NCBI RefSeq assembly: GCF_003334785.1 | Contig: NZ_QOWV01000021.1 | Direction: 5' to 3' (one strand) | DNA length: 60,030 nt | Source of the DNA: Escherichia coli | GTDB lineage: Bacteria; Pseudomonadota; Gammaproteobacteria; Enterobacterales; Enterobacteriaceae | In this document: positions 59,133 to 60,030 of the stretch, one piece after another | How positions within the stretch are numbered: position 1 is the first letter of the stretch | How the letters are laid out: every line of letters begins with the position of its first letter | The notes under the pieces: model-generated | What the model saw: the letters and a program-made list of their open reading frames with translations, nothing else | What the model was told of the DNA's origin: nothing | Database searches by the model: none | Position numbers and translations under genes: made by a program

Positions 59133-60030
59133 TTAATCATGATACGGTATGCATACTGAACTCAATCCCGGGACACTATTTCTGATAAAAATATATTCTC
59201 CTTTATTATTAAGCGTCTCAAATCGTCCATCAGGTGTTGCGAGATAAAATGCTTCAAGATTATTATCTTTACTTCTTACAAGATTTTTATCGCTACTTGA
59301 AAAAAATTCATCAACATAATCGCCATGACTATCTGCACCGTGAGTATGATAAGCAGCAACTCTATCTGTACCTGTGGGACATTTTCTTTTCAGAGGATAT
59401 GACTCCTTTCTTAAATTATCAGTTTCTGCCTTAGATGCAAAATATTTTCCATTAGTATCTTTACAGACAATACCAGAGTATTCCATATCATTACATAGAG
59501 ATCTATTCTGCGTTTCTTTCAAAGCATCTAACGCAGCATCTGCAGTACTATCAAATTTACTTGGTCCTATTATACGTGAAAGAACACCACAAACTCCCCC
59601 CGTACATGCTCCAGATCTGGCATCATCCCAAGTCTGCAATAATCCCATAGGGTCAATTTGTTGTAGTGGATTTAAAGGATACTGATATAAATTCCATCCC
59701 CCTTTCAACCCCATCGGGTCCTGAGTAATATACCGCCCCTGCAACGGATCGTAGTACCGGTGACGGTTATAGTACAGCCCTGATTCCTCATCATGCTGCT
59801 GCCCTGGCAGACGGTACGGCTGATACACATGATGCGGGTTCTCCTCATTAAGCTGGTTGCCCCATTCATCATATTCCGCGCTCCACGCCGTATTGCCGTC
59901 TTCGCTGATAAGCGCCAGCGGCAGTCCCCGGTGGTCGCAGTGATAAAGATGAGCTTTTCGCGCCGGTGTGTATTCCGGCTCCACCTGTCTGGCCAGTTGC
60001 TCCACCGTCAGCCCGCACTGCGCAAGCCAC
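59133..60030 (-). CDS. rhsD: Rhs protein, 3' part only (core end with DPMGL motif + 168 aa C-terminal toxin domain); 5' end lies beyond the window
   Basis: Conserved Rhs core end ([16 protein letters not shown]...[10 protein letters not shown]) followed by a divergent AT-rich C-terminal domain; reading frame still open at the window edge. Confidence 0.85.

What the first reader, a model, noticed from the sequence alone, without database searches (positions are those of the whole stretch)
59133..59640. RhsD C-terminal toxin domain of unassigned function paired with a lipoprotein-type immunity protein
After the DPMGL demarcation the rhsD C-terminus (168 aa) contains several Cys and an H-x-H ... 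S-x-x-D arrangement ([12 protein letters not shown]...FFSSSD). This is loosely reminiscent of metal-binding hydrolase signatures such as JAMM/MPN+, but the spacing is not canonical. The adjacent ybbC product has a lipobox signal peptide (ILFAC), suggesting it is exported and membrane-anchored, which is unusual if the toxin acts in the cytoplasm. The biochemical activity and compartment of action cannot be read from sequence.
Basis: partly seen in the sequence, partly recalled or inferred. Interest (0 to 1): 0.45.

Follow-up and report, generated by a model that had tools for sequence, protein, structure and literature searches.

The report
RhsD JAMM-like toxin, exported immunity
The tip of the E. 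coli RhsD toxin is an untested, already catalogued zinc-hydrolase-type (JAMM/JAB) domain, and its partner YbbC is an exported lipoprotein, which suggests the toxin acts in the periplasm rather than as the cytoplasmic "RNase" the literature calls it.

Summary
The window end is E. coli K-12 rhsD/ybbC (100% identity). The 168 residues after the second DPMGL carry E53, H98-T-H100, S114-x-x-D117 and six Cys. ybbC, 39 nt downstream behind an AAGGAG site, starts with a signal peptide ending in the lipobox LFAC.

This is not an unclassified domain. Pfam gives DUF4329 (E=8e-38) and Imm-NTF2-2 (E=7e-26), which are the Tox-JAB-2 / Imm-NTF2-2 pair of Zhang et al. 2012.
- E, H, H and D are invariant in 53 divergent homologues.
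- Only the HxH-to-SxxD spacing differs (13 residues versus 7).

I found no experiment. Papers call the domain an "RNase" by citation only.

New here: every full-length Imm-NTF2-2 N-terminus inspected has a signal peptide. In 8 of 11 diverse toxin loci the adjacent gene is exported, across at least three unrelated families. YbbC's predicted fold resembles cystatin/PepSY protease inhibitors. The best reading is a periplasm-acting zinc (iso)peptidase blocked by a periplasmic lipoprotein; substrate unknown.

Counter-evidence: one PAAR-linked locus with a non-exported neighbour, and an inconclusive complex model.

The parts
59706..59720 (-). First DPMGL of the Rhs core end (part of the paired DPxGL motif)
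   Evidence: Translation. Its role as half of the Rhs C-terminal autoproteolysis motif comes from established knowledge and was not tested here.
59640..59654 (-). Second DPMGL, the demarcation between the conserved Rhs core and the variable toxin tip
   Evidence: GC content falls from 0.55-0.58 in the core to 0.31-0.36 in the tip at this point.
59136..59639 (-). RhsD C-terminal toxin domain, 168 aa (stop codon at 59133-59135)
   Evidence: The AF2 model has pLDDT 91.6 and pTM 0.87.
59181..59540 (-). DUF4329 / Tox-JAB-2 domain (residues 34-153 of the tip), with a JAMM/MPN+ fold
59481..59483 (-). E53, the predicted general-base glutamate of the JAMM motif
   Evidence: Present in 114/114 divergent homologues and invariant in A1. 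The catalytic role is inferred from the JAMM family.
59340..59348 (-). H98-T99-H100, the predicted zinc ligands (H[ST]H)
   Evidence: H98 113/114, T99 103/114, H100 113/114.
59289..59300 (-). S114-S-S-D117, the predicted oxyanion Ser and third zinc ligand Asp, 13 residues after HxH
   Evidence: S114 107/113 and D117 105/110. D117 is invariant in A1.
59099..59104 (-). Shine-Dalgarno AAGGAG, 5 nt upstream of the ybbC ATG
58725..59093 (-). ybbC, a 122-aa immunity protein (stop codon included)
   Evidence: annotated YbbC/YhhH family protein. Pfam Imm-NTF2-2, E=6.8e-26.
59040..59093 (-). YbbC signal peptide (residues 1-17) ending in lipobox L15-F-A-C18; Cys18 is the predicted lipidated residue
   Evidence: pattern match. 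Lipidation itself was not tested.
58728..58931 (-). Imm-NTF2-2 domain of YbbC (residues 55-122), an alpha+beta cone (cystatin / PepSY / NTF2-like)

Best explanation
This is the toxin-immunity tip of the E. coli RhsD polymorphic toxin.

The last 168 residues, released after the paired DPMGL motif, form a Tox-JAB-2 (DUF4329) domain. It has a JAMM/MPN+ fold with a complete zinc-hydrolase catalytic set: E53 as general base, H98/H100/D117 as zinc ligands, and S114. An unusually long 13-residue loop separates HxH from SxxD.

YbbC is its cognate immunity protein. It is made with a Sec signal peptide and a lipobox, so it should sit as a lipoprotein facing the periplasm. Its Imm-NTF2-2 domain has a cystatin/PepSY-like fold.

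I infer that the toxin acts in the periplasm of the target cell as a zinc-dependent peptidase or isopeptidase on an envelope substrate, and that YbbC neutralises it there by direct binding. Candidate substrates, which are pure inference, are peptidoglycan cross-links, the Lpp-peptidoglycan link, or a periplasmic protein.

Shown: sequence identity, family membership, fold, invariant catalytic residues, the signal peptide/lipobox, and conserved export of partner proteins.

Inferred: zinc binding, peptidase rather than nuclease chemistry, periplasmic site of action, the substrate, and physical inhibition by YbbC.

The overall confidence of 0.55 combines about 0.95 for the family and fold assignment with about 0.6 for periplasmic action and about 0.6 for peptidase chemistry.
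For: Family:
- Pfam DUF4329, E=8e-38, and Imm-NTF2-2, E=7e-26.
- Zhang et al. 2012 list Tox-JAB-2 = DUF4329 with motif 'E, H[ST]H, S, D' and immunity Imm-NTF2-2.

Catalytic set:
- Invariant in 114 divergent representatives and in alignment A1.

Fold:
- AF2 model with pLDDT 91.6.
- One family member also hits Prok-JAB at 3.5e-6.

Export of immunity:
- YbbC has a lipobox.
- Every full-length Imm-NTF2-2 N-terminus inspected has a hydrophobic signal sequence. These include YhhH and proteins from Salmonella, Enterobacter, Pseudocitrobacter and metagenomes.
- The gene immediately downstream of the DUF4329 toxin encodes a signal-peptide protein in L001, L002, L003, L004, L005, L006 and L007, as well as in the window.
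- These partners belong to three unrelated types: Imm-NTF2-2, a family with no Pfam match (L002/L005), and DUF6794.

Secreted family members:
- Stand-alone DUF4329 proteins with their own Sec signal or lipobox exist, e.g. P0107 and P0165.

Cysteines:
- C59 and C87 co-occur (60 both, 50 neither, 18 only one; Fisher p=1e-19, not phylogenetically corrected).
- All six Cys are kept in the closest relatives I read (P0039, P0047, P0051 and the Salmonella tip; about 41-51% identity for the three in A1).
- This fits disulfides formed in an oxidising compartment.

Inhibitor-like fold of YbbC:

Module maintenance:
- Kept at >=95% identity (nearly all >=99%) in 1855 of 5426 complete E. coli genomes.
- ybbC transposon insertions lose fitness under trimethoprim in K-12 (PMC8767339).
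Against: - No biochemical or genetic experiment on this domain was found.
- Export of the neighbour is not universal. L012 (PAAR-DUF4329) is followed by a 176-aa protein with no signal peptide.
- In L013 the first downstream gene lacks a signal and only the second is a lipoprotein. L014 is uninterpretable.
- A published table lists Salmonella Rhs-DUF4329 immunity genes as 'No TM or signal peptide / CdiI' (PMC10469887). I could not verify this.
- The fused toxin-linker-YbbC AF2 model gave pTM 0.59, so it provides no confident complex.
- Cysteine counts in the core domain are not biased towards even numbers, and 26 of 105 members have no Cys.
- No family member was fused to a peptidoglycan-binding domain.
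- From general knowledge, K-12 lacks a type VI secretion system, so delivery in this strain is doubtful.
Confidence: 0.55

Rival explanations
1. The domain is a cytoplasm-acting nuclease or RNase of the RadC-like branch of the JAB superfamily. This was proposed by Zhang et al. 2012 and is repeated as 'RNase' in later T6SS surveys. On this view YbbC's N-terminal hydrophobic segment is incidental, or serves only to intercept incoming toxin.
For: - Zhang et al. argue that the toxin JAB clades lack the ubiquitin-tail groove and may be nucleases like RadC.
- L012 and L013 have non-exported proteins immediately downstream.
- The Salmonella table lists 'No signal / CdiI'.
Against: - The 'RNase' label is citation-only, with no assay behind it.
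- The highest fold scores are to proven isopeptidases (BRCC36, PfJAMM1, AfJAMM, Cap3, AMSH, Rpn11).
- The immunity partner is exported in 8 of 11 loci and in every full-length Imm-NTF2-2 N-terminus inspected. From established knowledge, known nuclease toxins have cytoplasmic immunity proteins.
- Sec-secreted stand-alone family members exist.
Confidence: 0.2
2. The domain is a JAMM peptidase that acts in the target cytoplasm. The exported immunity protein captures it in the periplasm during transit, before it crosses the inner membrane.
For: - The fold and catalytic residues are the same as in the best explanation.
- All JAMM enzymes characterised so far are intracellular (Zhang et al.).
- Many Rhs toxins studied so far act in the cytoplasm (general knowledge).
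Against: - No membrane-translocation segment was looked for or found in the 168-aa tip.
- Covarying Cys pairs and Sec-secreted stand-alone homologues point to function outside the cytoplasm.
- From general knowledge, immunity proteins of cytoplasm-acting T6SS/Rhs toxins are cytoplasmic wherever they have been studied.
Confidence: 0.12
3. In K-12 the module is an undeployed relic. It is intact in sequence, but with no secretion system and no current function its 'mechanism' is moot in this strain.
For: - K-12 lacks a T6SS (general knowledge).
- A related E. coli locus (L009) shows a DUF4329 tip with two in-frame stops next to an intact yhhH, so toxin decay does happen.
- Two orphan cassettes and a possible transposase remnant lie next to the locus.
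Against: - Both ORFs are intact, with every catalytic residue and a strong ribosome-binding site.
- The module is kept at >=95% identity (nearly all >=99%) in 1855 of 5426 complete genomes.
- ybbC insertions have a fitness phenotype.
- This rival concerns deployment, not what the domain does.
Confidence: 0.1
4. The domain is a nucleic-acid or nucleotide deaminase. The JAB and deaminase folds are related.
Against: - The sequence has no [HC]-A-E ... P-C-x-x-C deaminase motif; the conserved set is E/HTH/S/D.
- No deaminase family appears in the Pfam results.
Confidence: 0.02

Closest known systems
Tox-JAB-2 / Pfam DUF4329 toxin domain with Imm-NTF2-2 immunity (Zhang, de Souza, Anantharaman, Iyer, Aravind 2012, PMC3482391)
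   Same: This is that family. The HMM matches are 8e-38 and 7e-26. The conserved motif is the same 'E, H[ST]H, S, D'. The domain sits at the C-terminus of an Rhs protein with the immunity gene immediately downstream. E. coli is the organism named for Imm-NTF2-2.
   Different: Nothing differs structurally. The differences are in interpretation. The 2012 paper guessed a nuclease and named Imm65 as the only lipoprotein immunity protein. It did not note that YbbC has a lipobox or that Imm-NTF2-2 proteins carry signal peptides. It also listed Imm-NTF2-2 as 'E. coli only', whereas members are found here in Salmonella, Enterobacter, Pseudocitrobacter and metagenomes.
JAMM/MPN+ zinc isopeptidases (AfJAMM, PfJAMM1, Rpn11, CSN5, AMSH, BRCC36; bacterial Cap3 and BilC)
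   Different: There are 13 rather than 7 residues between HxH and SxxD, with extra conserved positions in that loop (Y108, E111, F113). According to Zhang et al. there is no ubiquitin-tail groove. It is delivered as a toxin. It is probably extracytoplasmic, whereas all characterised JAMM enzymes are intracellular.
Periplasm-acting T6SS peptidoglycan amidase and peptidase effectors with periplasmic immunity proteins (Tae/Tai families, Tlde1, VgrG2b metallopeptidase)
   Same: An antibacterial effector paired with an exported immunity protein. The predicted chemistry is peptidase chemistry.
   Different: The catalytic fold is unrelated: those effectors are NlpC/P60 cysteine peptidases, YkuD-type enzymes or zincins. 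No peptidoglycan activity has been shown for DUF4329. Delivery is inside an Rhs shell rather than as Hcp/VgrG cargo.
Tox-JAB-1 with the lipoprotein immunity protein Imm65 (Bacteroidetes)
   Same: A second JAB-type Rhs toxin clade whose immunity protein has a signal peptide and a lipobox. This is the same pairing logic seen here.
   Different: It is a different JAB clade (NxxxE, HxH, S, D), has an unrelated immunity fold, and occurs in a different phylum.
RadC-like JAB domains (proposed nucleases)
   Different: RadC is cytoplasmic and is not a toxin tip. It scores lower than the isopeptidases. Its nuclease activity is itself a proposal.

Membership tests
Pfam DUF4329 / Tox-JAB-2 | Significant match to the family HMM | tested here: met
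   PF14220, i-Evalue 8.4e-38, covering model positions 2-114 of 116.
Pfam DUF4329 / Tox-JAB-2 | Conserved residues E, H[ST]H, S, D | tested here: met
   E53, H98-T-H100, S114 and D117 are present. They are invariant or nearly so in 114 representatives and in A1.
Pfam DUF4329 / Tox-JAB-2 | Located at the C-terminal tip of a polymorphic toxin, with an immunity gene immediately downstream | tested here: met
   It follows the second DPMGL of RhsD. ybbC starts 39 nt after the stop codon. Of 123 representatives with a long match, 63 are Rhs/YD-linked.
JAMM/MPN+ metalloprotease superfamily | MPN/JAB fold | tested here: met
JAMM/MPN+ metalloprotease superfamily | Motif E-x(n)-H-[ST]-H-x(7)-S-x-x-D | tested here: inconclusive
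   All motif residues are present in the right order, but the HxH-SxxD spacer is 13 residues, not 7. The residues are met; the canonical spacing is not.
JAMM/MPN+ metalloprotease superfamily | Zinc binding and (iso)peptide hydrolysis | not testable with these tools
   Requires purified protein. No report was found in the literature searches.
Pfam Imm-NTF2-2 immunity proteins | Significant match to the family HMM | tested here: met
   PF15631, i-Evalue 6.8e-26, full model 1-68, YbbC residues 55-122.
Pfam Imm-NTF2-2 immunity proteins | Encoded directly downstream of a Tox-JAB-2 toxin | tested here: met
   True in the window and in L001, L003, L004, L007 and L009.
Pfam Imm-NTF2-2 immunity proteins | Binds and neutralises the cognate toxin | tested here: inconclusive
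   A fused toxin-(G4S)6-YbbC AF2 model gave pTM 0.59. Both domains were well folded but their relative placement was not confident. No experiment is available.
Bacterial lipoproteins (SPase II substrates) | N-terminal signal peptide ending in a lipobox [LVI]-x-[AGS]-C | tested here: met
   [17 protein letters not shown]|C matches a PROSITE-type lipobox pattern written from memory. Homologues keep the signal peptide but mostly not the lipobox, e.g. YhhH ...TWAQC and Salmonella ...GWADS.
Bacterial lipoproteins (SPase II substrates) | Actual lipidation and membrane anchoring | not testable with these tools
   Needs globomycin sensitivity, palmitate labelling or fractionation.
Rhs C-terminal autoproteolytic core end | Paired DPxGL motifs at the end of the conserved core | tested here: met
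   DPMGL is at 59706-59720 and again at 59640-59654, 17 residues apart. Cleavage itself was not tested.
Nucleic-acid deaminases (same fold class) | [HC]-x-E and P-C-x-x-C zinc motifs | tested here: not met
RadC-like JAB nucleases | Closest fold and sequence relationship is to RadC rather than to isopeptidase JAMMs | tested here: not met

The most novel reading that the evidence does not exclude
Tox-JAB-2 (DUF4329) toxins, including RhsD-CT, would be the first JAMM-family enzymes known to work outside the cytoplasm. On this reading they are zinc isopeptidases injected into, or secreted to, the periplasm. There they cut an isopeptide-type bond of the cell envelope, for example a D-Ala-mDAP cross-link or the Lpp Lys-mDAP tether. 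They are blocked by periplasmic cystatin/PepSY-like inhibitors such as the lipoprotein YbbC. The widespread 'RNase' annotation of this effector class would then be wrong.
Probability: 0.3. Interest if true: 0.7.

Novelty: already known. Interest (0 to 1): 0.4.

Why it matters
RhsD/YbbC sits in the best-studied bacterial genome and in a third of complete E. coli genomes. Its activity has never been measured, yet surveys of type VI effectors in E. coli and Salmonella label the domain an RNase by citation alone.

The evidence here points to a periplasmic zinc peptidase: the immunity partner is exported across several unrelated immunity families, the catalytic set is a full JAMM set, and the immunity protein has a protease-inhibitor-like fold. 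If this is correct, three things follow:
- It corrects an annotation that is propagating through the literature.
- It extends JAMM chemistry to the cell envelope.
- It adds a new enzymatic class to the antibacterial effectors that attack the envelope.

The hypothesis can be tested in a few weeks with standard E. coli genetics, by targeting the toxin to the periplasm or the cytoplasm, with or without a signal peptide on YbbC.

Tried and rejected
- NCBIfam and PADLOC scans of both proteins gave no hits.
- PDB sequence searches found nothing meaningful, whether with the single sequences or with family profiles. No relative has a solved structure.
- The search for related loci with the 53-sequence alignment failed because no stretch was conserved enough. 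I sampled loci one by one with the look-up of encoding contigs instead, using all 12 look-ups.
- tblastn of the domain against 50,697 phage records found no match.
- PHROGs gave only a weak hit to a family of unknown function, phrog_33532, E=7.5e-5.
- Foldseek against viral structures recovered JAB-like phage proteins, e.g. Xanthomonas phage Xop411 p25, with no functional annotation.
- I tested for a disulfide signature through Cys-count parity. Parity is not even-biased, so only the C59/C87 covariation is kept, as suggestive evidence. I could not check the 3D proximity of the Cys pairs because model coordinates are not exposed.
- I tried to obtain a toxin-immunity complex by fusing the two proteins with a (G4S)6 linker, using 6 true pairs plus unpaired rows. 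The pTM was 0.59, which is inconclusive.
- I looked for fusions of DUF4329 to peptidoglycan-binding or other cell-wall domains in 44 family members and found none.
- The promoter/terminator scan of the region was at background level.
- The deaminase reading was rejected on motif and fold ranking.

Full report
**What is in the sequence**

The last 2 kb of the window is 100% identical to E. coli K-12 MG1655, where it is annotated rhsD, ybbC, an 'RHS repeat-associated core domain-containing protein' and a hypothetical/YbbD-family protein. All of these lie on the minus strand.

- rhsD runs off the window end. Its stop codon is at 59133-59135.
- The conserved core ends with two DPMGL motifs, at 59706-59720 and 59640-59654.
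- The variable tip is exactly 168 aa (59136-59639).
- GC content drops from 0.55-0.58 in the core to 0.31-0.36 in the tip and ybbC. This is the classic Rhs core/extension boundary.
- ybbC (58725-59093) starts 39 nt after the rhsD stop, behind an AAGGAG site with a 5-nt spacer.
- YbbC opens with [17 protein letters not shown]|C, which fits a PROSITE-type lipobox pattern written from memory.

**What family it is**

- Pfam assigns the tip to DUF4329 (PF14220, E=8.4e-38) and YbbC to Imm-NTF2-2 (PF15631, E=6.8e-26).
- Zhang et al. 2012 (PMC3482391) list 'Tox-JAB-2 (DUF4329 in Pfam)'. They describe a deaminase-like JAB fold, conserved 'E, H[ST]H, S, D', Rhs association, and Imm-NTF2-2 as the immunity protein.
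- The pair is therefore already catalogued. 'Unassigned' is true only in the experimental sense.
- NCBIfam, PADLOC and PDB sequence or profile searches gave nothing.

**Is the JAMM resemblance real?**

Yes.

- A full-library phmmer search found 255 cluster representatives at E<=0.001.
- In 114 representatives below 60% identity, E53 is present in 114/114, H98 and H100 in 113/114 each, T99 in 103/114, S114 in 107/113 and D117 in 105/110. S47, G56, P88, F113, T135 and P136 are also nearly invariant.
- A 53-sequence MAFFT alignment has E53, H98, H100 and D117 as its only invariant columns.
- AlphaFold2 on that alignment gave a confident model (pLDDT 91.6, pTM 0.87).
- Of 44 family members scanned against Pfam, 43 hit DUF4329. 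One also hits Prok-JAB at 3.5e-6, and four do at E<=0.1.
- The one departure from the textbook motif E-x(n)-H-x-H-x(7)-S-x-x-D is a 13-residue spacer, itself carrying conserved Y108, E111 and F113.

**What the literature says it does**

I found no experiment.

- Zhang et al. speculated that the toxin JAB clades might be nucleases like RadC, because the bacteria concerned lack ubiquitin-like conjugation.
- Later in-silico surveys of E. coli and Salmonella T6SS effectors simply write 'DUF4329 ... RNase', citing earlier papers.

**The compartment argument**

This is where the data add something.

- Zhang et al. state that Imm65, the partner of Tox-JAB-1, is the only lipoprotein immunity protein in their collection. 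They did not note YbbC's lipobox.
- I collected Imm-NTF2-2 proteins with a profile search, which returned 170 hits. I then inspected the N-termini.
- Every full-length N-terminus inspected has a hydrophobic signal sequence. Examples:
  - YhhH: ...CVIVSLFVFTYNTWAQC
  - Salmonella P0032: ...LIIISLLFITHNGWADS
  - Enterobacter P0247
  - Pseudocitrobacter P0271
  - Salmonella salamae P0273: MKFFLSVLLIFLLLSSISYG
  - E. coli P0274
  - metagenomic P0266, P0284 and P0286
- Only YbbC has a clean lipobox. The others look like signal-peptidase-I substrates.

I then looked at the gene next to the toxin in diverse loci.

- L001, L003, L004 and L007 have Imm-NTF2-2 proteins with signal peptides.
- L002 and L005 have a different, Pfam-less small protein with a signal peptide.
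- L006 has a 245-aa DUF6794 protein with a signal peptide.
- Including the window, 8 of 11 toxin loci sampled have an exported protein immediately downstream. These proteins are of three unrelated types.
- Stand-alone DUF4329 proteins with their own Sec signal or lipobox also exist, e.g. P0107 and P0165 (MKFIGILFFLLAGC).

From established knowledge of T6SS effector-immunity pairs, the compartment of the immunity protein tracks the compartment where the toxin acts. This therefore argues for a periplasmic target.

**Supporting hints**

- C59 and C87 co-occur: 60 sequences have both, 50 have neither, 18 have only one. Fisher p is 1e-19, not corrected for phylogeny.
- All six Cys are retained in the closest relatives I read: P0039, P0047, P0051 and the Salmonella tip, about 41-51% identity for the three that are in A1.
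- This fits disulfides formed outside the cytoplasm. I could not verify 3D proximity, and overall Cys parity is not even-biased.
- In the fused model, the YbbC core is well folded (pLDDT 84-94). Its N-terminal 25-30 mature residues are disordered, as expected for a lipoprotein tether.
- ybbC insertions lose fitness under trimethoprim in a K-12 TraDIS screen, alongside envelope genes such as ldcA, wbbK and waaS (PMC8767339). This is a weak hint that the locus is not inert.

**Counter-evidence**

- L012 encodes a 217-aa PAAR-DUF4329 protein followed by a 176-aa protein with no signal peptide.
- In L013 the first downstream gene lacks a signal and only the second is a lipoprotein. L014 is uninterpretable.
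- A published table lists Salmonella Rhs-DUF4329 immunity genes as lacking a signal peptide and carrying a CdiI domain (PMC10469887). I could not check this. The Salmonella locus I did retrieve (L007) has a signal-bearing Imm-NTF2-2.
- My attempt to predict the complex by fusing toxin and mature YbbC gave pTM 0.59, which is what two independently folded domains would give.
- No family member is fused to a peptidoglycan-binding module. The substrate is therefore entirely open.

**Best explanation and its rivals**

- Most likely (about 0.55): a Tox-JAB-2 zinc (iso)peptidase that acts in the target periplasm and is neutralised there by the lipoprotein YbbC.
- Rival: a cytoplasmic RadC-like nuclease or RNase (about 0.2).
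- Rival: a cytoplasm-acting peptidase intercepted in transit (about 0.12).
- Rival: an undeployed relic in K-12 (about 0.1). This concerns deployment, not chemistry.
- Rival: a deaminase (about 0.02), rejected on motif and fold ranking.

**Distribution**

The tip-plus-ybbC module is present with at least 80% coverage in 1855 of 5426 complete E. coli genomes, at >=95% identity and nearly all >=99%.

**Verdict**

The object is a known, catalogued toxin-immunity pair in the reference genome, so its novelty as an entity is nil. What remains interesting is a concrete, cheap-to-test hypothesis that contradicts the circulating 'RNase' label: a JAMM-type enzyme acting in the periplasm.

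Noticed in passing
window 58015-58725 (-) and 57774-58034 (-): There is a second, orphan Rhs cassette directly after ybbC. Its ATG overlaps the ybbC stop codon (ATAATG). It comprises a short Rhs core fragment ending in DPLGL and a 142-aa tip (…[13 protein letters not shown]…). The tip has only a weak Pfam hit, to serum amyloid A (PF00277, E=3.6e-4). It is followed by an 86-aa ORF with an N-terminal transmembrane segment and no Pfam match. PMC7216683 also mentions SAA-like motifs in EHEC Rhs tips.
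   Followed up: partly
L007 1440-3859 (Salmonella enterica contig AAGWGY020000041.1): Salmonella carries the same two-cassette order as the window. First comes a DUF4329 tip with a signal-bearing Imm-NTF2-2. Then comes a QFFHC.AFCRVSK-type tip followed by a 171-aa YbbD_head protein with an N-terminal hydrophobic segment. The 86-aa ORF in the window therefore looks like a truncated version of that second immunity gene.
   Followed up: partly
L009 1-780 (E. coli contig DANTNZ010000003.1): An RhsB-type DUF4329 tip upstream of an intact yhhH contains two in-frame stop codons (…NRGE*KGSY… and …NNIK*FYL…). The toxin has decayed while the immunity gene is kept.
   Followed up: no
L012 2878-4233 (metagenome contig): This locus encodes a PAAR-DUF4329 protein with a much longer HTH-to-SxxD loop than RhsD. 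It is followed by a 176-aa protein without a signal peptide, in a locus that also has a second PAAR gene, DUF4123 and Rhs genes. This may be a cytoplasm-acting subclade of the family. It is the main exception to the exported-immunity pattern.
   Followed up: partly
window 59136-59639 (-), tip residues C59/C87, C12/C17, C49/C163: Cys59 and Cys87 covary across the family (Fisher p=1e-19). The other four Cys are conserved only among the closest relatives.
   Followed up: partly
window 56622-57029 (+): A 135-aa ORF (…ACKIMGVSRDTFYRYRELV…) looks like the helix-turn-helix N-terminal part of a transposase. It sits between the Rhs cassettes and the 364-aa ORF at 55448-56542. It was not searched against any library.
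   Followed up: no
window 58725-59093 (-), ybbC: A published TraDIS-Xpress screen reports that ybbC insertions reduce fitness in trimethoprim (log2 changes of about -1.4 to -2.1). Envelope genes such as ldcA, wbbK and waaS appear in the same list (PMC8767339). No explanation is offered there.
   Followed up: no
L014 476-10576 (pig gut metagenome contig): A 3366-aa protein carries its own Sec signal peptide, LRR_5 repeats, a beta-helix, an Rhs/YD shell and a DUF4329 tip. This shows the domain is also used on giant Sec-exported surface toxins outside T6SS contexts.
   Followed up: no
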